A stretch of 64,000 nucleotides of DNA from Escherichia phage JLBYU08. Location: the sequence record OK272482.1; one strand, 5' to 3'. The translations under genes were made by a program, and so were the position numbers. Each line of letters opens with the position of its first letter. Position 1 is the stretch's first letter. This document shows, piece by piece, positions 1,792 through 27,121 of this stretch. The notes under the pieces were generated by a model. The model saw only the letters and a list, made by a program, of their open reading frames with translations, had not been told where the DNA came from and searched no databases.

Positions 1792-2007
1792 ATGAAGATA
1801 GAAATATTTGGTGGAGCTGACAACACTCGTGGCCTGATTTACCTTGAATTCGATGAATCATACCTGCCAGAGGTGTTAAATATAGACTCTGTTGCGGAGG
1901 CTTTGGGAGTAAACCCTAAAGAACTCCACTCTTGTGCTGAGATCGATGGTTGGGAAGAGACCATGAACATTGATTTCAGTGAAGTAGAGGATGAACCGCT
2001 GGACTGA
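1792..2007 (+). CDS. hypothetical protein, 71 aa
   Basis: ORF with GAGGAG SD. Confidence 0.5.
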   Translation: MKIEIFGGADNTRGLIYLEFDESYLPEVLNIDSVAEALGVNPKELHSCAEIDGWEETMNIDFSEVEDEPLD

Positions 2008-2772
2008 CACACAATTAGCTGCCCGGCTAAAGTGCTGGAAGCACCTATAACACATCTTTCAACTAAATTTCCTACAACCACAATCACTTACCTCCCACAC
2101 ATGACTGTTTGCTTGTTTAGTGAGCAGTCATGCCTTGACATTCTTGCCTATCCTGATAAAATTAAGTTCTTCTCTTTTCTTTTACCGAGTAATTCGGGTT
2201 TTCTGTTCTCTTCGGTTTGAAGGGGTATGGAGATACACCTGAGTGAACAGGGTGAACAACCGAACATTTGGCTATGGCATTAGCATGGCGAAGCGGACGG
2301 GTGACGAAAGAGGGGCCGGAGGACACCAGTCACTGCCATATGATATATGGGTGATAACCTGAAGAGTCTGAATAAGTGTTTAAGTACCAGTCAGAGGAAA
2401 AGGTGAATGGTAGCCGAAGGGGGAGGGGGGGTTTCTTGTATCTTTAATTTGTATATTATGTATACACTTGTAAACCAATCTCATTTGAATTTGTTTACCA
2501 CACAAAGGGGATAGAGACAAATATTATCTATTAAACTTGAATTATTTATAGAAAATACCACAACACCACTTAAGTCTTTGATTTTACACACAAATCCTAC
2601 AGATATTCACCCTCCATATTTAACATACCTGTAACATATTCCATACCCTACCTGTCTGATCAATTCACCCAACCACACCCTCCATATTTTCCCTGTCTGT
2701 ACCACCCCTGCCCCGCCGGGAGTCCCGTCATATCTGGCTTTCCAGCAAATATCACACCCACAAATATCATTG

Positions 2773-2900
2773 CCTGAAGAGGGTTTCATCCCATAATACC
2801 TGCCTTACCTGAAGAGCGCTTCATATACCCCGTAAATTTTTTTAATTGACCTCCTCCCCGCCGCCGGAGGGGTCGGCTTTTCCCACACAGGCCTGAAGAG
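2773..2900. repeat. three copies of the 9-mer CCTGAAGAG within 130 bp
   Basis: Exact 9-mer at 2773, 2808 and 2892 in a coding-poor region. Confidence 0.5.
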
Positions 2901-3537
2901 TCAGCCAGAAATATTTGAACAGGTCCAGTTATACCACGATTTTGACCTGACCGACAGGGAGGCCCGAAGGGTCTAGCTTTCAGCTAGAGTCCTTGCAGGA
3001 CCTACAGGAGCGCTGCCAGGCGGACGAAATGGGAATACTTCTCATTCTTATAACAATTCTCAAATATCAAGGCAGTGAGGCAAATTAATAGGTGAGGCCG
3101 TTCACATAGTGGCACAACATTTGCAATCTATTTTGTGTGGGGGAATGAGAATACATATCATTGTGAGAACCATTATCATTACGGGCAATTTAACATAATA
3201 CCCATTATACGCACCACTGACGATACATACAGGGATTGATAACATGGGTTACTGTTTACGCATATAACAATTATATTTCTTACTATTTGTGTGGGATATA
3301 GTTAGCAGCCGATAGATTAGATATTGACCTGCGGACTTCTGACCGTCTAGACGTCTAAACGCCCACACAACAAGGCTTATACATACATCGCTGAATGTAA
3401 ACAGGGCCGCAAAAATGCTACCATACCAGATTGTAAATTTTTCATGCAGCACTTGACAAAGAGGAGAAAAACTTGTCTGACACAATATGACATACTGGGC
3501 ACATTAAACACACTTTAGACTTAATTGACATGCCTGA

Positions 3538-3660
3538 CTGTTTACGCTGTCACTATTCACGCTATTACTATTCACTCCCTTTACTGTTCACGCTCTTACT
3601 GTTTACATGCTTAATGGTTTACATGCTTAATATACTGCATGTCTAATAGTTTACATAGCT
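3538..3660. repeat. iteron-like array of 7-8 short direct repeats (TGTTTAC / TATTCAC / TGTTCAC), 14-16 bp period
   Basis: Directly visible tandem degenerate repeats; no ORF. Confidence 0.6.
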
Positions 3661-3684
3661 AACTATTTATACAGATATGATAAG

Positions 3685-3901
3685 CCATGCCATTCGTTTG
3701 CATGTTAATAATTTATGACATAATATAAAAGCAGGGCAACTATTAGCAGATCTATAGTTGCCTTGCTTGTCATGTCATGATTAACTAAATACAAGGCAAC
3801 TATGATCTGATTAATAGTTTGCAGACAAACTATCACGGGGGTGATGGTTACTGCTTTTATATTATGTCGCGACTCCGTCGCGCCATGCCATTCGTTTGCA
3901 T
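3685..3901. repeat. palindromic element: 19-bp direct repeats flanking an 18-bp inverted repeat pair and inner hairpins
   Basis: CCATGCCATTCGTTTGCAT at 3685-3703 and 3883-3901; GACATAATATAAAAGCAG at 3717-3734 inverted at 3851-3868; inner GGCAACTAT/ATAGTTGCC hairpin around a BglII-like AGATCT centre. Confidence 0.6.
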
Positions 3902-4516
3902 AGTTGCCTTATTGTTACAGATAAAATAATTGTATTGTTAATTATTTCTTATCTTTCTCTTAGTCATCTAATGATTCCAGTTAGTATAGTAATGTACAGT
4001 AAACATTAGACGACTAAAGATTTATATGCTTATAATAACTTACAGTGACAATTTCGGACTGTTTACGAAAAATGTTGACACCTGAGCCGATTTATGTTAT
4101 GCAGTTTACACGAATAATTATTTTATGCAGGTATTGACTATTCCGTTATTCCATGGTTGGAATAAATACTTAGCAGTCTATAGAATGGTGACGCTACGTG
4201 AATTCTGGAATTTAGTGGCTATAGTTATACTCGATTTTTCACGTAGAACACGCTTTTGTTAGTGTGTAAGTGTATGACTTATAAAGATTTTTAGTTGTTG
4301 ACAAGATACTGAAGATATGCATCAGGTTAAATTTTGTGCAATAGCGGCATTACGTGCAATTTTGGGAGAGAAAACGGGCAAAAATGGCCTTGCTACCACA
4401 CAATGAAAAATTATGCAATAGTTATTTTCCATGTATATTTGTACAGTGTGTGGGATTAATGGCTAGTCAATTATTCCACTTGCCAGGTAGGGCCGTTTAT
4501 GGTAGGAGAAGAGCAG

Positions 4517-4543
4517 ACAAAAAGAAAGGGGCCTAAGCCCCTT
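4517..4543 (-). terminator. rho-independent terminator at end of leftward block
   Basis: On minus strand: AGGGGC-TTAG-GCCCCT hairpin followed by TTCTTTTT. Confidence 0.6.
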
Positions 4544-4561
4544 GATAATTCAGTTAAAAAA

Positions 4562-4981
4562 TTATAATGATTCGTATATTTCAAAAATCCGATTTGCCAG
4601 GTCGTTACGGTAGCGGAATTTTTCCTCACGTTTGATCATAAGATCTTTATAGCCGTACTCTTTAAGCACTTCATTAACTTTATGGCGGCATACTTTCATA
4701 TTATCCTGCGCGTCACCAATAAATCTGTTGCTATGGTGCATGGCTTTAATTTCTTCTTCCAGGACCAGGGCAACTATGCGGACCGGATCAAGCTGATAGG
4801 CGGTAACATCCATGCGGCATTGTAGACGGCTTTTAACGTCCGCCACCGGATATACTGCAACCTCTTCCCCGTCAACATTGACAATAATTAGTTTACCATC
4901 GATTTCGAATCCTTTCGCCGCCGGACCGTGACAAAAAGCGTTATCAAAGCTATATGCCGGATTATCAGATTTAATGTTCAT
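4562..4981 (-). CDS. hypothetical protein, 139 aa
   Basis: ORF with GAGAGG SD; terminator downstream. Confidence 0.6.
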   Translation of the reverse strand: MNIKSDNPAYSFDNAFCHGPAAKGFEIDGKLIIVNVDGEEVAVYPVADVKSRLQCRMDVTAYQLDPVRIVALVLEEEIKAMHHSNRFIGDAQDNMKVCRHKVNEVLKEYGYKDLMIKREEKFRYRNDLANRIFEIYESL

Positions 4982-5127
4982 GGTGTTTTTTTACCTCTCA
5001 GTTAATTTTCTTACAACTTCCCTTCAAAAAAGAATATAGCAAAACTGCCGATCCCTGTCAACCAAGGATAGCATAATTTTTATGTGATCAAGGGGCTTTA
5101 TTGCCCCTGACCATGTAACTTGTTGTA

Positions 5128-16066: not shown

Positions 16067-16396
16067 TCAGTTGTCTTTGTTTTTAGGTTTGTACATGCGC
16101 AGAGGTATGGTCTTTGTAACATTCCATTTCCTCAACCCTTCCCAGCTCCAGTTGTGGGCGTGGTATCCGGTTATGCATGCACTACTGGAGTGATCGTAAG
16201 CATAAGAGAACGCTAAGCGCACCAGGTGGGGCCAGTCCTTCCATGGTTGTGGACCGTAAGCTTTTCTCCAACACCGACACAAACTAAATGTCTCAAGGAT
16301 AGGAAGGATAACAAACCCATACACTGTCACCAAAATAGCCAGTGCAATGATTGTCAGGAATACATACCCTGCAGTTGAAATGATGATCTCTGTCAT
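16067..16396 (-). CDS. membrane protein, 109 aa
   Basis: N-terminal hydrophobic segment; AGGGGAGGA SD; ATGA coupling. Confidence 0.6.
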   Translation of the reverse strand: MTEIIISTAGYVFLTIIALAILVTVYGFVILPILETFSLCRCWRKAYGPQPWKDWPHLVRLAFSYAYDHSSSACITGYHAHNWSWEGLRKWNVTKTIPLRMYKPKNKDN

Positions 16397-16590
16397 TTGT
16401 CCTCCCCTTTCTTACGAATATAGATGTGAGATCCTGCCTGTATATAAATTTCTCGACCATCTTCTGCAAAGATATGAAATACACGATCACCTTCGTACTC
16501 GATACGAGATATTTTCATAATGGTCTTTCCACCTGGGATACGGATCTCGTCCCCCACAGCGATGTTCCATGCAGATTTAAGCTTAAACAT
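16393..16590 (-). CDS. hypothetical protein, about 65 aa
   Basis: AAGGAAGG SD before internal ATG of track ORF. Confidence 0.5.
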   Translation of the reverse strand: MFKLKSAWNIAVGDEIRIPGGKTIMKISRIEYEGDRVFHIFAEDGREIYIQAGSHIYIRKKGEDK

Positions 16591-16828
16591 CTGCACCTTC
16601 CTTTGGGAGCTCGAACTCTGGCATAGCCATATACGCCACAACAGGGTTGTAATCAAAGTAGAAATGACCGTTAATTATCCCAGTTTTGTGAGCATAGTCA
16701 CCAGATCCTGCAAGAACAACCTCGCAAACTCCGAAATCAACCTTGCCATTCTCATCTGCCATGGCTACAATATACTTTCCTAGAGGCATGTTTTTAACGC
16801 CGTCTACAAATGTCCACCCTTTGTTCAT
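16583..16828 (-). CDS. hypothetical protein, 81 aa
   Basis: ORF with GGAGA SD. Confidence 0.55.
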   Translation of the reverse strand: MNKGWTFVDGVKNMPLGKYIVAMADENGKVDFGVCEVVLAGSGDYAHKTGIINGHFYFDYNPVVAYMAMPEFELPKEGADV

Positions 16829-16849
16829 AACTTTATCTCCTGGACTTTC

Positions 16850-17182
16850 TTAAGGTAACCAGTAAACAATTTCGCCTTTCAGTTCCATGTCGTTACCGAC
16901 ATAGATTTTCCAGCCATCCATTTTAGCCACTGCAGGAGTGAAGTCCGAAGAACCACTAACCTCTTTCCAAGTCCCGTAGTCAGGTTGCCAGATATAGAAT
17001 CCACCTTCCTTGTCCCATGCTCCATATACCACATCGAGCAGGTTGCCCATTGCAACAATAGTAGGCCGTGGGAATAATACACCTACAGATGCACCACAAT
17101 TTCGGGTAGATTTTAAATTACAATCCCAAAAGATGTCTGCCAGTGTGGCGGCAATAGCTTTACGTCTTTCCAATGTTACCAT
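16850..17182 (-). CDS. hypothetical protein, 110 aa
   Basis: ORF; weak SD. Confidence 0.5.
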   Translation of the reverse strand: MVTLERRKAIAATLADIFWDCNLKSTRNCGASVGVLFPRPTIVAMGNLLDVVYGAWDKEGGFYIWQPDYGTWKEVSGSSDFTPAVAKMDGWKIYVGNDMELKGEIVYWLP

Positions 17183-17192
17183 GGCACGATAC

Positions 17193-17384
17193 TCACTTGT
17201 TGTTAAGAAGTTCTAAAACTTTCTGTTTTACTTTGTCAAGGTCTGTGGATTCAAAAACTGTACGATATCCCCAACTTTGCCCATAGGAGTGACTGCAATC
17301 CCCGTAGCACCATTGCTCAATTTGATAGTATTCAAGGAAGGGGTGCTGTCTAACTATGATACCATCCCGGTTAAAAATTACCAT
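17193..17384 (-). CDS. hypothetical protein, 63 aa
   Basis: ORF. Confidence 0.45.
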   Translation of the reverse strand: MVIFNRDGIIVRQHPFLEYYQIEQWCYGDCSHSYGQSWGYRTVFESTDLDKVKQKVLELLNNK

Positions 17385-17447
17385 AATACATCACTCTCTG
17401 TTAGTTTATGCATATATTATACACTGCAGTTTTCAGATGTCAATCTT

Positions 17448-24014: not shown

Positions 24015-24368
24015 TTAGTGACAATCACCCCAATTACGACCACACAAGTATTCACCTGTGATCTGGAACGGGACTCCCATCATTTTAGAAGCTTGCCAGA
24101 AGCAATGTACCACCATTTCGCCCACAGGACTCCAGATAAGTTCAAGCTTTCCGTCATCGTTCAAGATAGGATCGTACACCGTGTTTCCGTCTCTGTCAAC
24201 CACTTCGTTTCCGTTTTCATCCTTGCGTGCCTTTTTGTACTTATGACCGTCGAACACATGAAGTTTGGCCTCCTGCTCTGCCTTAAATGCTTCCAATTCT
24301 TCAATTGTGTCGAAGGTGTACACAGTCTTATACTTCGGTGTGTCAGGTACTTGAAGCTGATATTCATC
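24015..24368 (-). CDS. DNA polymerase (family A) exon 2: motif C (H|DEYQLQV) and C-terminal end ...NWGDCH
   Basis: Supplies the HDE motif and terminal His absent from the upstream 809-aa ORF; follows the omega-G of the intron. Confidence 0.75.
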   Translation of the reverse strand, partial: DEYQLQVPDTPKYKTVYTFDTIEELEAFKAEQEAKLHVFDGHKYKKARKDENGNEVVDRDGNTVYDPILNDDGKLELIWSPVGEMVVHCFWQASKMMGVPFQITGEYLCGRNWGDCH

Positions 24369-24697
24369 CATCTGTTCAGGTAGGTCGTTAAGCTACCCCG
24401 CACCATTACGTGCATAGCCATACAGTTTCCTGTATGGATCGGACTACCTCACTGCCTTGGTAACAAGGCACCTCCCATTTCGACCGCACTTGCTGGCCTA
24501 CTCTACTCGCTTCTTCACACCAACCTATGTTGGAGCTATGCTTTCGATAGTCTCTGAACGTTCATCCTCTCGGATGCTTCGCTGCGGATTAGCATATTGA
24601 GCTTTTACCATACTCAGGTGTAAAAGTCAACTTAGCTTTCCCGTCAATTAAAGAGGTTATTCGACATAGATCACTCTATGAAGCCACAATGTTATTT
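24369..24697 (-). mobile_element. group I self-splicing intron, 329 nt, no internal ORF
   Basis: AAUUGACGGGAAAG, GUUCAGAGACUA and GGUAGUCCGA elements; exon 1 ends in U, intron ends in G; in-frame TAA just inside intron. Confidence 0.8.
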
Positions 24698-27121
24698 ATG
24701 GTAATAGATAATACGACGGACACCTTCATCGTACCACCCACGCTTCACCATTTGGTGGTGCATGAGTATCCCAACTAAGTCACACAACGATGCACCACCA
24801 TTTTGTTGGTATGCATTAAGTAAAGAGTGTTTAGATCGGGTCCAGATGGCATGACCATCAAAAGAGTATATAAACTTCTTACCAGTTGCTTCCCAGAATT
24901 TCTCCAGATCCTCTTTACGCCCCTTAAGACCAGGGTTGGCATCCCAAAGCGCATCGATTACCCTTTGCCCCAACTCTGGAGAGATATCCAGCATGTCTGC
25001 AACTTTATCTTTTTGTGCCCCGTACATAACCCCATACGTGATAGGTTTACCGTCGTTACGGGACACCTCTCTGCCTGCTACTTTTGTATATGCCTCAGCA
25101 TTGTTTTGGTGTGCGTCCCCGTTACTTACAACATCATAATACAAGCCGTTGTCGAACTCAAAGGCACCCCAAGCCCCGATAAGCTGCTCTAAGTTGGACC
25201 CGTCAATACCGATCTCAAAGTATCCTGGAGGAACACCCCACAGACTACGCATCTCTTTACCCATAACCACTTTAGGAGATGGTTTAGGCATGTTTGCACA
25301 AATACTGTGTTTCTGTCGGGAAGTGTTTGTTAGCCCAGAACTTTTAGCAGGAAGCTTATGGTCAATCTTCAAACGTGGGTGATTAAGAAGACCAGTATCA
25401 ACCTTATCCTCCTTGATTGGATCAAGGACCGATCTGCGGTTTCGCAATGATAACCACAAGACGATATCTTTAGCCATCTCTCCGTTCAATTTTTCAAGAT
25501 TTGGGCATAGGTGTCCAAACGTATCTTTCAGCTGCGGAGAAGTAATAAGTGCTCTGGCTTTTCTACGTATTTTCCCGAATACTTCCTTTTTAATCCTTTC
25601 GGAGTTAGGAAAGCTTCGGAACTTGTGCACGGTTGTCTGAAACTTAGCATCAGTTTTGTTCCAGAAGTTGATAATCAGGTCACAATACTCTGACTCTAAA
25701 AGCTCGTCCATGTATGCATATACTCGTGCATCAACATCTGCATCAGGTAGAGCTTTCTTCTTGCTGTCTTTAGTTACATCCTTAGTTCTCCACATTGTCG
25801 GAAGCCAACCAGCACTGATCAGGTATCGCTTAATGTCGTCCTGATTGCTGATTTTCATAGGTATCTTGCAGTCCGGCATTCGCTTCTGCTGTAGATCACT
25901 TATTGCCTGATCCATCAGCTCTTTAGGTAAAGGTTGTGGTGTGGAAGTGCCCTTAATATAGCCTCTCAAGAAATCAGCCATCTTATCAGGGTCTTTGCAG
26001 CCCATCTCTTCACACCATTTTATCCCCATCTTGCTGACATCTCCTGTGGAGGTAAATGCTCGCTTAGGCGGGGCTTTGAACTCCAAAGCACTCATGTCCA
26101 CAGGATAGCCAAGCTTATCTTTTAACCATTTCCAACCATTGTTGGAGATTGTCCCATCTTGGTTAAACGGCTTTTCAGGGAACTTGGGCCGCTGAGACAT
26201 TGACAGCTCTTTTAAAGGAAGTTGAGGTTCAACACGATCAGCGATTTCTTTCATCCACGCATCGCAACGGTCACGTAAAGCAATAGCTCCATCTATGTCG
26301 AAGTATACACCCTGACGGGCCTGCAGCTCCATCAGGAAGTGCTGCAGCATGCCTCGACGTAGTGCGTTCTTCCAGGTGATCTTCTTGAACCCTTTCGGCT
26401 TCTCTTTGGCTGGATCGTACATAAAGTTCTGCATGTCAGATTTGCCGTAGAATACACCTTTTGATTCCGCTACCAGCTCTTTCCAGAGCAGCTCCTGGAT
26501 GATAACGTCCTCGAATACACGATCCACATACTTCCACAACGGAAGATCGCGCCAGTCATCAATTTGAACTTTCTGGTTACCAAGGGCGTAGCCCCATGCC
26601 ATAAGGCCGTGAGGACCAACAGGCTGCATTTTCTTAGTAACCGGGTTGAATACAGAGTCCGGACAACCTTTTGGTAAAGGGCGATCAGGCCACAAGATTC
26701 GGCTCATCGCCAACGTATCAAACAGGTTAACCTGGTGGTCGTTGATAGTCCCCATACATTTAGGATCACGGAACATATCAAAATGAATACCGGATAATCT
26801 CTCCATCAGCATAAAGTCATAACTGTAGCAGTTATGGCAGTTCAAAGCTGTTGGTGACCAGTCGGAATTGCCTGTAAGCCAACCCTCCAACTCTGAAAAA
26901 TCTGCTATGCGAACTTCAAAATCTTTATAAAAAGTTTTCTTTGCCAGAATAAAGTTCTTAGCCTTCTCTATATCCTCTTCGGAGTAGTGTGTGCGGTCAT
27001 TTAGAGGAAGGAACAGCATAAAACGGTTCTTATTCAGCTCTTTAAACAGGCCGCAGTGATAATAAAGATCTGGGTCTTCCAGCAAACCGGATGACTCAAA
27101 ATCGAACGACCACATGCTCAT
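24698..27121 (-). CDS. DNA polymerase (family A) exon 1: 3'-5' exonuclease and polymerase domains through motif B
   Basis: N-terminal WSFDFESSG exo motif; IGIDGSNLEQL (motif A-like); KPITYGVMYGAQ (motif B); AAGGAGAA SD. Confidence 0.9.

What the first reader, a model, noticed from the sequence alone, without database searches (positions are those of the whole stretch)
2220..4350. 2.1-kb coding-poor region packed with iterons, short repeats and a palindrome flanked by direct repeats
No convincing gene lies between the convergent blocks. The region contains three CCTGAAGAG 9-mers (2773-2900), an array of seven or eight TGTTTAC/TATTCAC-type repeats at a 14-16 bp period (3538-3660), and an 18-bp inverted repeat pair with inner hairpins bracketed by 19-bp direct repeats (3685-3901). 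This looks like a replication origin, packaging site, genome terminus or non-coding RNA locus. The direct-repeat plus inverted-repeat layout also resembles a small transposable-element footprint.
Basis: seen in the sequence. Interest (0 to 1): 0.65.

Follow-up and report, generated by a model that had tools for sequence, protein, structure and literature searches.

The report
Genome-end region of rV5-like phage

Summary
Window 2008-4561 has no conserved ORF. All three repeat sets exist, with small corrections to their coordinates.

The window is a Vequintavirus (rV5-like myophage). The region is the "non-coding" gap between rV5 ORF163 and ORF164. Records from several labs start at 3019 or end at 3477, matched to the base.

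- The 15/16-bp array (3537-3677), and a TGACAY array that starts exactly at the DTR edge, lie just inside the left end. Their copy number varies between isolates.
- The palindrome (3717-3868) folds very strongly and carries two facing terminators. It is missing in phage FV3, which keeps a single 20-bp direct repeat.
- The CCTGAAGAG copies lie in a conserved C-rich block before the right end.

Two non-coding islands are more conserved than the neighbouring genes: 2102-2432 (a sigma-70 promoter plus a ~260-nt G-rich stretch ending in G5AG7) and ~3790-3915.

Best reading: a T7/ICP1-like concatemer-junction and packaging region. An origin role and a new RNA are not excluded. A transposon footprint is unlikely. 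Interest is moderate, because the kind of element is known.

The parts
2099..2131 (.). 8-bp perfect inverted repeat CATGACTG...CAGTCATG just upstream of the promoter -35. Possible operator, or end-of-operon hairpin for the ORF163-like gene.
   Evidence: Read from the sequence. Lies in the block that is nearly invariant in 21 genomes.
2135..2162 (+). Sigma-70-type promoter: TTGACA, 16-nt spacer, TAAAAT, with a TG extended -10. Predicted start near 2169.
   Evidence: 11 of 12 consensus match. Both hexamers are invariant in 21 genomes, while one genome carries 7 changes confined to the spacer.
2169..2432 (+). Island A: an ultraconserved G-rich non-coding stretch of ~264 nt. It starts with a pyrimidine-rich leader and a small hairpin (2185-2197) and ends with GGGGGAGGGGGGG followed by TTTCTT. 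Candidate ncRNA or transcription-coupled DNA element.
   Evidence: 0-5 variable sites per 100 nt in 8 genomes, against 13-35 in the flanking genes. At least 97.6% identity in 118 records. Conservation stops at the G-run, and 3 genomes carry unrelated sequence downstream. An ATG of an 18-aa ORF is lost in 2 genomes. No Rfam match. Folding z-score -1.65.
2433..2530 (.). AT-rich variable spacer, replaced by unrelated sequence in MiataMamis, Mangalyan and A135.
   Evidence: Alignment.
2540..2915 (+). Conserved C-rich block (GC skew down to -0.54). Contains CCTGAAGAG at 2773, 2808 and 2892 and a hairpin with a T-run at about 2847-2882.
   Evidence: Variation at 2855-2860 falls in the hairpin loop.
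2916..3005 (.). Hypervariable right-subterminal zone. It holds a variable number of CAGGAG(Y)GCT-type units and small GC hairpins and ends at the conserved cut-site context GGAGYGCTGCCA|GGCGGACG.
   Evidence: Alignment. Conservation falls to 0.35-0.6, with up to 56% gaps.
3019..3477 (.). Direct terminal repeat (459 bp), present once in the window, as in a concatemer junction or a collapsed assembly. The virion left end starts at 3019 and the right end stops at 3477.
   Evidence: The Gotham repeat_region 1-459 is identical to its last 459 bp and maps here. YN3, HdK5 and Gotham start at 3019. HdK5 and Gotham end at 3477. ECP2303 starts at 3478. Publications.
3478..3535 (+). TGACAY array: 2-6 units at 9-11 bp spacing, about one helical turn. 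The first unit starts exactly at the DTR/unique-sequence junction. The cut lies in the palindrome TGTC|T-GACA.
3537..3677 (+). Array with a 15/16-bp period, unit A-Y-T-R-T-T-Y-A-C-R. About 9 units here and 1-8 strict units in relatives.
3684..3703 (+). Left copy of the 20-bp direct repeat GCCATGCCATTCGTTTGCAT.
   Evidence: Present in all 21 genomes.
3717..3868 (.). Y-shaped palindrome. An 18-bp base stem encloses a long imperfect hairpin built from GGCAACTAT/ATAGTTGCC units and a second hairpin (3828-3849). It contains a - strand terminator (stem 3768-3729, tail 3728-3717) and a + strand terminator-like site (3828-3849 plus CTTTTATATT).
   Evidence: Annotated as a terminator in Murica and Alma. 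Absent from FV3. Present at one locus in 117 records.
3869..3881 (.). Small GC hairpin GCGAC-TCC-GTCGC between the palindrome and the right direct repeat.
   Evidence: Sequence. Folds.
3882..3915 (+). Right copy of the 20-bp direct repeat plus AGTTGCCTTATTG. Invariant in all 21 genomes, and retained in FV3 as its single copy.
3916..4525 (.). AT-rich conserved non-coding stretch (GC 0.28 at 3901-4100). It contains promoter-like sites (for example + strand 4007-4036, TAGACG-18-TATAAT) and scattered GTTTAC and CCCACACA motifs.
4526..4543 (-). Intrinsic terminator ending the ORF164-like gene (4562-4981, - strand).
   Evidence: Annotated in Murica and Alma.

Best explanation
Identity. This is the chromosome-end (concatemer-junction) control region of a Vequintavirus.

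Shown: the 459-bp direct terminal repeat occupies 3019-3477. Everything left of it is the right subterminal region of the virion DNA, and everything right of it is the left subterminal region.

Inferred mechanism:
- Replication yields concatemers, or a circle, with one repeat copy per junction.
- Terminase cuts at two fixed sites, GCTGCCA|GGCGG and CTTGTC|TGACA. The repeat is duplicated by synthesis, so every virion carries it at both ends, as in T7-type phages.
- The phased TGACAY units that begin exactly at the right-hand cut, and the 15/16-bp array behind them, are the most likely binding platform for the recognition subunit. That subunit is unidentified in this lineage. The variable CAGGAGYGCT-type units play the same role before the left-hand cut.
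- The palindrome at 3717-3868 acts mainly as a pair of facing intrinsic terminators. It would stop transcripts from either arm of the genome running across the junction. This is the bidirectional terminator the rV5 authors expected between genes 163 and 164 but did not find. It is dispensable, because FV3 lacks it.
- The promoter at 2135-2162 drives a ~260-nt G-rich transcript toward the junction. Its extreme conservation suggests either a functional RNA or transcription-coupled marking or priming of the junction.
For: Identity of the region:
- 121 Vequintavirus records match at 86-96%.
- rV5 labels this gap 'non-coding'.

Terminal repeat:
- Gotham's two annotated 459-bp repeats are identical and map to 3019-3477.
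- Record ends from five phages deposited by different labs coincide to the base.
- Published values are 459 bp and 458 bp.

Cut-site contexts are invariant in 21 genomes, while the sequence just outside them is hypervariable.

Arrays: the motif and its phase are kept although the flanks and the copy number change.

Terminators: with independent annotation. The rV5 authors expected such terminators here.

FV3 lacks the palindrome.

Promoter: the hexamers are invariant and the spacer is free to vary. Island A is more conserved than the flanking genes.

Precedents:
- ICP1, whose DNA polymerase is 46% identical, has its termini in a 1.3-kb ORF-less region with strand peaks 460 bp apart, next to the inferred late rolling-circle origin.
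- In T7, RNA polymerase pausing at the concatemer junction is coupled to packaging.
Against: - No read-end or coverage data exist for this isolate.
- One paper reports PhageTerm calling a Vequintavirus headful/pac, as PhageTerm also did for ICP1.
- No protein has been shown to bind any of the arrays.
- FFH2 and HeinrichReichert keep only 1-2 strict units of the 15/16-bp array, so a long array is not required.
- A 15-16 bp period puts successive sites on alternating helix faces, which is unusual for a wrapping terminase subunit.
- Island A has no covariation and only a weak folding signal.
- The extreme conservation of 3790-3915 is more than a terminator would need.
Confidence: 0.6

Rival explanations
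1. Replication origin. The 15/16-bp units would be iterons for a phage initiator, the AT-rich stretch at 3900-4100 would be the unwinding element, and the palindrome would be a loading or priming structure. Alternatively, a late rolling-circle origin is coupled to the terminus. This is not mutually exclusive with the packaging reading.
For: - Iteron-like array.
- GC content 0.28 at 3901-4100.
- The rV5 authors saw a GC/AT-skew change at the homologous place.
- In ICP1 the late rolling-circle origin is inferred next to the terminus.
- Some units resemble relaxed DnaA boxes, for example TTATTCACG against TTATNCACA. This is my own reading.
Against: - Copy number ranges from about 1-2 to 9 between viable isolates.
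- The 15-16 bp phasing is atypical for iterons.
- There is no adjacent initiator gene.
- The palindrome is absent in FV3.
- The rV5 skew changes all coincide with switches of transcription direction.
- ICP1's early theta origin maps about 60 kb from its terminus.
Confidence: 0.2
2. Non-coding RNA locus. Island A (2169-2432) would be a stable ~260-nt phage RNA with its own promoter. The palindrome could be a second structured RNA.
For: - Strong, conserved promoter.
- Conservation above that of the neighbouring genes.
- No conserved ORF.
- The 5' pyrimidine-rich leader can pair with the 3' purine-rich end.
- Palindrome folding z-score near -9.5.
- Related phages express abundant ncRNAs (ICP1, PAK_P3).
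Against: - No Rfam family matches, even at E<=10.
- Folding z-score is only -1.65.
- No compensatory changes.
- No canonical terminator at the 3' end.
- No similarity to the ICP1 ncRNA region.
- No expression data were found in the literature I could search.
- The palindrome folds equally well on both strands, as any DNA palindrome does.
Confidence: 0.3
3. Footprint of a small mobile element. The segment 3704-3881 would have been inserted with a 20-bp target duplication, and the 18-bp arms would be its terminal inverted repeats.
For: Direct repeats flank inverted repeats. FV3 has a single repeat copy and nothing between, which looks like an empty site.
Against: - One locus only, in 117 records.
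- No copy in 5,426 E. coli genomes or elsewhere in IMG/VR.
- The inverted repeats lie 13 bp or more inside the direct repeats, and the left spacer varies from 13 to about 100 bp.
- 20 bp is long for a target duplication.
- Deletion by recombination between the 20-bp repeats explains FV3 equally well.
- There is no transposase.
Confidence: 0.07
4. Overlooked small protein genes. Several depositors annotate 30-90-aa ORFs here.
For: MiataMamis, Mangalyan, Murica, FFH2, JEP1 and others annotate small CDS in this gap.
Against: Most ORFs are broken in most relatives, and none shows third-position bias. The annotated ORFs differ from record to record.
Confidence: 0.03

Closest known systems
T7/T3 concatemer junction (short direct terminal repeat with pac signals)
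   Same: Fixed ends and a short DTR present once per junction. Transcription toward the junction is linked to maturation. A plasmid carrying the junction plus an origin is packaged (citing Chung and Hinkle 1990). From my own memory of Dunn and Studier 1983, not checked here: arrays of short repeats (SRL/SRR) lie directly outside the T7 repeat on both sides, as they do here.
   Different: This is a myovirus that uses host sigma-70-type promoters rather than a phage RNA polymerase. The DTR is 459 bp against 160/230 bp. There is no sequence similarity. The direction of packaging and the recognition subunit are unknown.
Vibrio phage ICP1 gp1-gp2 ORF-less terminus region
   Same: A related replication module (DNA polymerase 46% identical). 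The termini lie in a 1.3-kb ORF-less region, with strand-specific end peaks 460 bp apart at positions 431 and 891. The small terminase has not been identified.
   Different: The flanking genes diverge in ICP1 and converge here. PhageTerm called ICP1 headful/pac. No sequence similarity was detectable.
Terminase-recognition repeat arrays (lambda cosB, P1 pac, SPP1 pac)
   Same: Several short direct repeats lie within about 200 bp of the cut and are presumed to seat the small terminase subunit. This comparison rests on textbook knowledge.
   Different: Those systems give cohesive or headful ends, not a DTR. Binding has not been tested here. Copy number is unusually variable here.
Iteron-type origins (lambda ori, theta plasmids)
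   Same: Tandem direct repeats with AT-rich DNA nearby.
   Different: 15-16 bp phasing, variable copy number, no initiator gene next to it or overlapping it.
Pakpunavirus PaP1 fixed ends
   Same: A myovirus of the wider Felix O1/rV5-like assemblage with experimentally mapped non-permuted ends.
   Different: Its 1190-bp redundancy contains two genes.

Membership tests
Short direct-terminal-repeat (T7-type) genome terminus | The same sequence is present at both ends of the virion DNA | tested here: met
   In the homologous record Gotham, bases 1-459 are identical to the last 459 bases, and both map to window 3019-3477. The window itself holds only one copy.
Short direct-terminal-repeat (T7-type) genome terminus | Fixed, non-permuted boundaries shared by independent isolates | tested here: met
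   YN3, HdK5 and Gotham start at 3019. HdK5 and Gotham end at 3477. ECP2303 starts at 3478. bov10K2 and bov22_2 also start at 3019.
Short direct-terminal-repeat (T7-type) genome terminus | Read-start peaks at both boundaries and ~2x coverage between them in virion DNA of this isolate | not testable with these tools
   No reads are available. Published for Gotham as a region of doubled coverage. One other study reports a PhageTerm 'headful' call for a Vequintavirus.
Short direct-terminal-repeat (T7-type) genome terminus | Large terminase belonging to a DTR-type clade | not tested
   No TerL phylogeny was made.
Iteron-type replication origin | Three or more direct repeats phased with the helix (about 11 or 22 bp) and a stable copy number | tested here: not met
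   The period is 15-16 bp, and there are 1-8 strict units per genome.
Iteron-type replication origin | Adjacent AT-rich unwinding element | tested here: inconclusive
   GC is 0.28 at 3901-4100, but this lies more than 220 bp from the array, beyond the palindrome.
Iteron-type replication origin | Initiator gene adjacent to or overlapping the iterons | tested here: not met
   No conserved ORF in 2008-4561.
MITE/IS-like mobile element | Terminal inverted repeats abutting a short target-site duplication | tested here: not met
   The inverted repeats lie 13 bp or more inside 20-bp direct repeats, and the left spacer varies from 13 to about 100 bp.
MITE/IS-like mobile element | Multiple copies or other insertion sites | tested here: not met
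   One locus in 117 phage records. None in E. coli genomes. Only the same two IMG/VR contigs.
MITE/IS-like mobile element | Empty site in a relative | tested here: met
   FV3 has one direct-repeat copy and no element. This is equally explained by deletion between the repeats.
Intrinsic (rho-independent) terminator | GC-containing hairpin followed by a U-tract | tested here: met
   On the - strand: a 15-bp stem at 3768-3729 with tail TTTTATATT. On the + strand: 3828-3849 with a CTTTTATATT tail. Annotated as terminators in Murica and Alma. Function was not assayed.
Any Rfam RNA family | Covariance-model match | tested here: not met
   No match in 1900-4700 even at E<=10, apart from a chance miRNA hit at E=7.2.

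The most novel reading that the evidence does not exclude
Island A (2135-2432) would be a new, genus-wide, nearly invariant phage element: a sigma-70-driven ~260-nt G-rich RNA ending in G5AG7-U-run. It would either act as a stable regulatory or anti-host RNA, or form a persistent R-loop or G-quadruplex that primes late replication or marks the concatemer junction for terminase. The second option is functionally reminiscent of ColE1 RNA II and of mitochondrial CSB II (G6AG8). That comparison is from my own memory and was not tested.
Probability: 0.2. Interest if true: 0.65.

Novelty: new member of a known kind. Interest (0 to 1): 0.4.

Why it matters
Vequintaviruses are widely used as E. coli O157 typing and therapy phages. 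Many deposited genomes are opened at arbitrary points, and annotation pipelines fill this gap with spurious small ORFs.

Placing the true ends at 3019 and 3477, and knowing which flanking elements are conserved, variable or dispensable, has practical uses:
- Correct genome orientation and annotation.
- A defined candidate packaging signal for engineering and transduction assays, in a lineage whose small terminase is unknown.
- Two sharply defined ultraconserved non-coding targets for experiments.

It also supplies the bidirectional terminator that the rV5 authors predicted here but did not find.

Tried and rejected
- Rfam at gathering and at E<=10 thresholds: nothing in the region. tRNA scan: none.
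- Small ORFs: rejected by intactness and codon-position tests.
- One large structured RNA spanning the G-rich and C-rich blocks: z = +0.34. The C-rich block alone gave z = -0.5 and -1.4.
- Covariation in island A and in the palindrome: only one-sided changes, so uninformative.
- Distant homologues: blastn in distant mode finds only Vequintavirus. IMG/VR holds only 2-3 contigs. No hit in E. coli genomes.
- Homology to the ICP1 terminus region or to ICP1's abundant ncRNA region: nhmmer found nothing significant, and local alignment was no better than shuffles (17 of 300). Eye-catching shared 8-11-mers such as CACCTGAGTGA are therefore treated as chance.
- Synteny-guided search for the equivalent region in PVP-SE1: the gene order differs and the attempt was abandoned.
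- A promoter formed by the left direct repeat (-35) and the left palindrome arm (-10), at 3697-3724: rejected, because the spacer between them varies by up to ~100 bp among relatives.
- Literature: no Vequintavirus transcriptome, origin mapping or description of these repeats was found.
Full report
WHAT THE WINDOW IS. Window 2000-4600 matches 121 phage records at 86-96% identity. Apart from 19 records labelled Campylobacter phage (the one inspected is marked UNVERIFIED), these are Escherichia or Shigella Vequintavirus records, that is, rV5-like myophages. In rV5 itself the homologous stretch is the 2.6-kb gap between ORF163 (+ strand) and ORF164 (- strand). The rV5 genome paper draws it as a grey box labelled "non-coding". 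It notes a GC/AT-skew change there and says that bidirectional terminators were expected between genes 163 and 164 but were not found (PMC3606486). Other depositors leave the gap empty or fill it with mutually inconsistent 30-90-aa ORFs.

CHECK OF THE OBSERVATION. All three repeat sets are real.
- The direct repeats are 20 bp (3684-3703 and 3882-3901), not 19.
- The array has about 9 units and runs to 3677.
- CCTGAAGAG also occurs at 2358 and 1711.
- The palindrome's predicted folding energy is far outside its shuffles, with z = -9.4 to -10.7 as RNA on either strand or as DNA.
- I aligned 21 genomes. No ORF of 30 aa or more in 2008-4561 is both intact in the relatives and biased toward third-position change. 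The region is genuinely non-coding.

THE ORGANISING FEATURE: THE GENOME ENDS. Some GenBank records begin or end inside the region.
- Phage Gotham carries an annotated 459-bp repeat_region at both ends of its record. Its paper reports 459-bp terminal repeats and the same start sequence for the packaging of all virions (PMC7471380).
- HdK5 and EdH4 were reported with 458-bp terminal redundancies (PMC6563267).
- The two Gotham copies are identical and map to window 3019-3477.
- At base level, YN3, HdK5 and Gotham start with GGCGGACG (window 3019). HdK5 and Gotham end with AAAACTTGTC (3477). ECP2303 starts with TGACAC (3478).
- The window therefore contains a single-copy junction: right unique arm, then the DTR, then the left unique arm.
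- The two cut positions lie in small palindromes, GCC-A|GGC and TGTC|T-GACA. This is read directly from the sequence.
- One study reports a PhageTerm 'headful' call for a Vequintavirus found in a phage cocktail. I weigh that below the concordant fixed ends from several labs.

ANATOMY AROUND THE REPEAT. The conservation profile is strongly structured.

1. Directly outside both DTR boundaries the sequence is hypervariable and repetitive.
   - Left of 3019 there is a variable number of CAGGAG(Y)GCT-like units and small GC hairpins.
   - Right of 3477 there are 2-6 TGACAY units at 9-11 bp spacing, the first starting at the junction itself.
Its core RTTYAC and its 15/16-bp phase are kept (69 of 84 spacings, the rest being multiples), although the flanks differ and the copy number ranges from 1-2 (FFH2, HeinrichReichert) to 8-9.
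   - The cut-site contexts themselves are invariant.
2. Two islands are more conserved than the neighbouring protein genes. The counts below are variable sites per 100 nt among 8 genomes; the flanking genes score 13-35.
   - Island A (2102-2432) scores 0-5.
   - The block from about 3790 to 3915 scores 3.
   - Island A is at least 97.6% identical in all 118 records that hold it.
3. Island A begins with an inverted repeat and a near-consensus sigma-70 promoter (TTGACA-16-TAAAAT with TG).
   - The promoter hexamers never vary, while one genome has seven changes in the spacer. That is the pattern expected of a working promoter.
   - The downstream ~264 nt are G-rich and stop at GGGGGAGGGGGGG plus TTTCTT.
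   - Conservation ends exactly there, and three genomes carry unrelated sequence beyond it.
   - The ATG of a possible 18-codon ORF is destroyed in two genomes.
4. The C-rich block at 2540-2915 holds the CCTGAAGAG copies and a hairpin with a T-run whose variable positions fall in the loop.

THE PALINDROME.
- Positions 3717-3868 fold into a Y shape. An 18-bp base stem encloses a long hairpin made of GGCAACTAT/ATAGTTGCC units and a second hairpin.
- Read as transcription signals, it holds a good - strand terminator (15-bp stem at 3768-3729 followed by TTTTATATT). Murica and Alma independently annotate this as a terminator.
- It also holds a + strand terminator-like site (3828-3849). The 18-bp arms are the two U-tract tails.
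- This is what the rV5 authors expected between genes 163 and 164.
- FV3 has a single copy of the 20-bp repeat and nothing between, so the element is dispensable. The other 117 records keep it, always at this one locus.
- In rV5 and A135 a 33-bp insertion sits in the apical loop, and the spacer between the left repeat and the left arm varies from 13 to about 100 bp.
- These facts, together with the absence of copies in 5,426 E. coli genomes and in IMG/VR, argue against a mobile element. Recombination between the 20-bp repeats explains FV3.
- The right repeat plus the adjoining AGTTGCC is invariant and is retained in FV3, so that short sequence may be the truly constrained site. Its ligand is unknown.

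HOW IT MOST LIKELY WORKS.
- Shown: the position and boundaries of the DTR, the non-coding nature of the region, the conservation pattern, and the dispensability of the palindrome.
- Inferred: T7-type maturation of concatemers, in which terminase recognises sites flanking the single junction copy of the repeat, cuts at the two fixed positions, and the repeat is duplicated by synthesis.
- The phased TGACAY units at the cut and the array behind it are the best candidates for the recognition platform.
- The palindrome insulates the junction from convergent read-through transcription.
- Transcription from the island A promoter toward the junction may be coupled to maturation, as RNA polymerase pausing at the T7 concatemer junction is, or may yield a functional RNA.
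- The nearest experimentally studied relative supports the general picture. ICP1's DNA polymerase is 46% identical. Its termini lie in a 1.3-kb ORF-less region with strand peaks at 431 and 891, which is 460 bp apart, close to the inferred late rolling-circle origin. Its small terminase is still unidentified.
- I found no sequence similarity between the ICP1 and Vequintavirus regions.

RIVALS.
- An origin function is not excluded and could coexist with packaging, given the AT-rich DNA at 3900-4100 and the ICP1 precedent. However, variable copy number, 15-16 bp phasing, the lack of an initiator gene and the loss of the palindrome in FV3 make a classical iteron origin unlikely.
- An ncRNA at island A is plausible but unproven. 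It has no Rfam match, a folding z-score of -1.65, no covariation because there is almost no variation, and no similarity to ICP1's abundant ncRNA region.
- Hidden protein genes and a transposon footprint are rejected as primary explanations.

NOVELTY AND VERDICT.
- The kind of element is known: a short-DTR terminus with subterminal repeats and terminators.
- The Vequintavirus DTR length is already published, and the 'non-coding' gap is already noted.
- I found no description in the searchable literature of the following:
  - the mapping of the ends into this gap;
  - the two copy-number-variable arrays abutting the cuts;
  - the facing-terminator palindrome and its absence in FV3;
  - the two ultraconserved non-coding islands.
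- I rate it a new member of a known kind with moderate interest (0.4). The most novel surviving reading concerns island A.

Noticed in passing
window 24015-27121 (- strand); intron at 24419-24707: A group I intron (Rfam RF00028, 72.5 bits) splits the family-A DNA polymerase gene inside motif C. Exon 1 ends ...RRIIYYH. After the intron the frame continues DEYQLQVPD...CGRNWGDCH*, a typical Pol I-family C-terminus. The rV5 record annotates the two parts as 'DNA polymerase' and 'hypothetical protein', and the rV5 paper mentions introns only in the terminase gene.
   Followed up: partly
window ~4550-5120: The ORF164-like gene (4562-4981, - strand, 139 aa) next to the non-coding region is missing in Gotham, whose alignment jumps from window 4549 to 5121. 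FV3 and Alma have no counterpart annotated next to the gap either. It is therefore an accessory gene.
   Followed up: partly
window 2094-4454: The 8-mer CCCACACA (TGTGTGGG on the other strand) occurs 6 times in this 2.4 kb, in both orientations, three of them inside the DTR. The whole 64-kb window has 10 copies against 2.4 +/- 1.6 in shuffles. Meaning unknown.
   Followed up: no
phage collection records MG0656xx: 19 records named 'Campylobacter phage' are 86-95% identical to E. coli rV5-like phages across this region. The one inspected (A135) is marked UNVERIFIED and unannotated. The host label looks doubtful.
   Followed up: no
L002 (rV5) and L021 (A135), inserted between window 3768 and 3769: A 33-bp insertion (TTAACATCCTCGAGACGAAGGCTATGCCTGAGT) sits in the apical loop of the long hairpin of the palindrome. 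Several genomes carry an extra GC hairpin (GGTGACCTTTGGTCACCCCTTCGGGTG) between the left 20-bp repeat and the left arm. This is a local indel hot spot.
   Followed up: partly
L023 (ICP1_2011_B) 425-434 and 887-895: Both PhageTerm end positions reported for ICP1 (431 and 891) lie on a shared TGTTAAGC motif in this ICP1 record. Seen by eye and not tested statistically. The coordinates assume the same numbering as in the paper.
   Followed up: no
L027 (ICP1_2011_B) 16379-17389: [quoted passage not shown] On the - strand it ends in a clear hairpin terminator followed by TTTTCTTTT, then a TTGACA promoter for gp139. There is no detectable similarity to the Vequintavirus region.
   Followed up: yes
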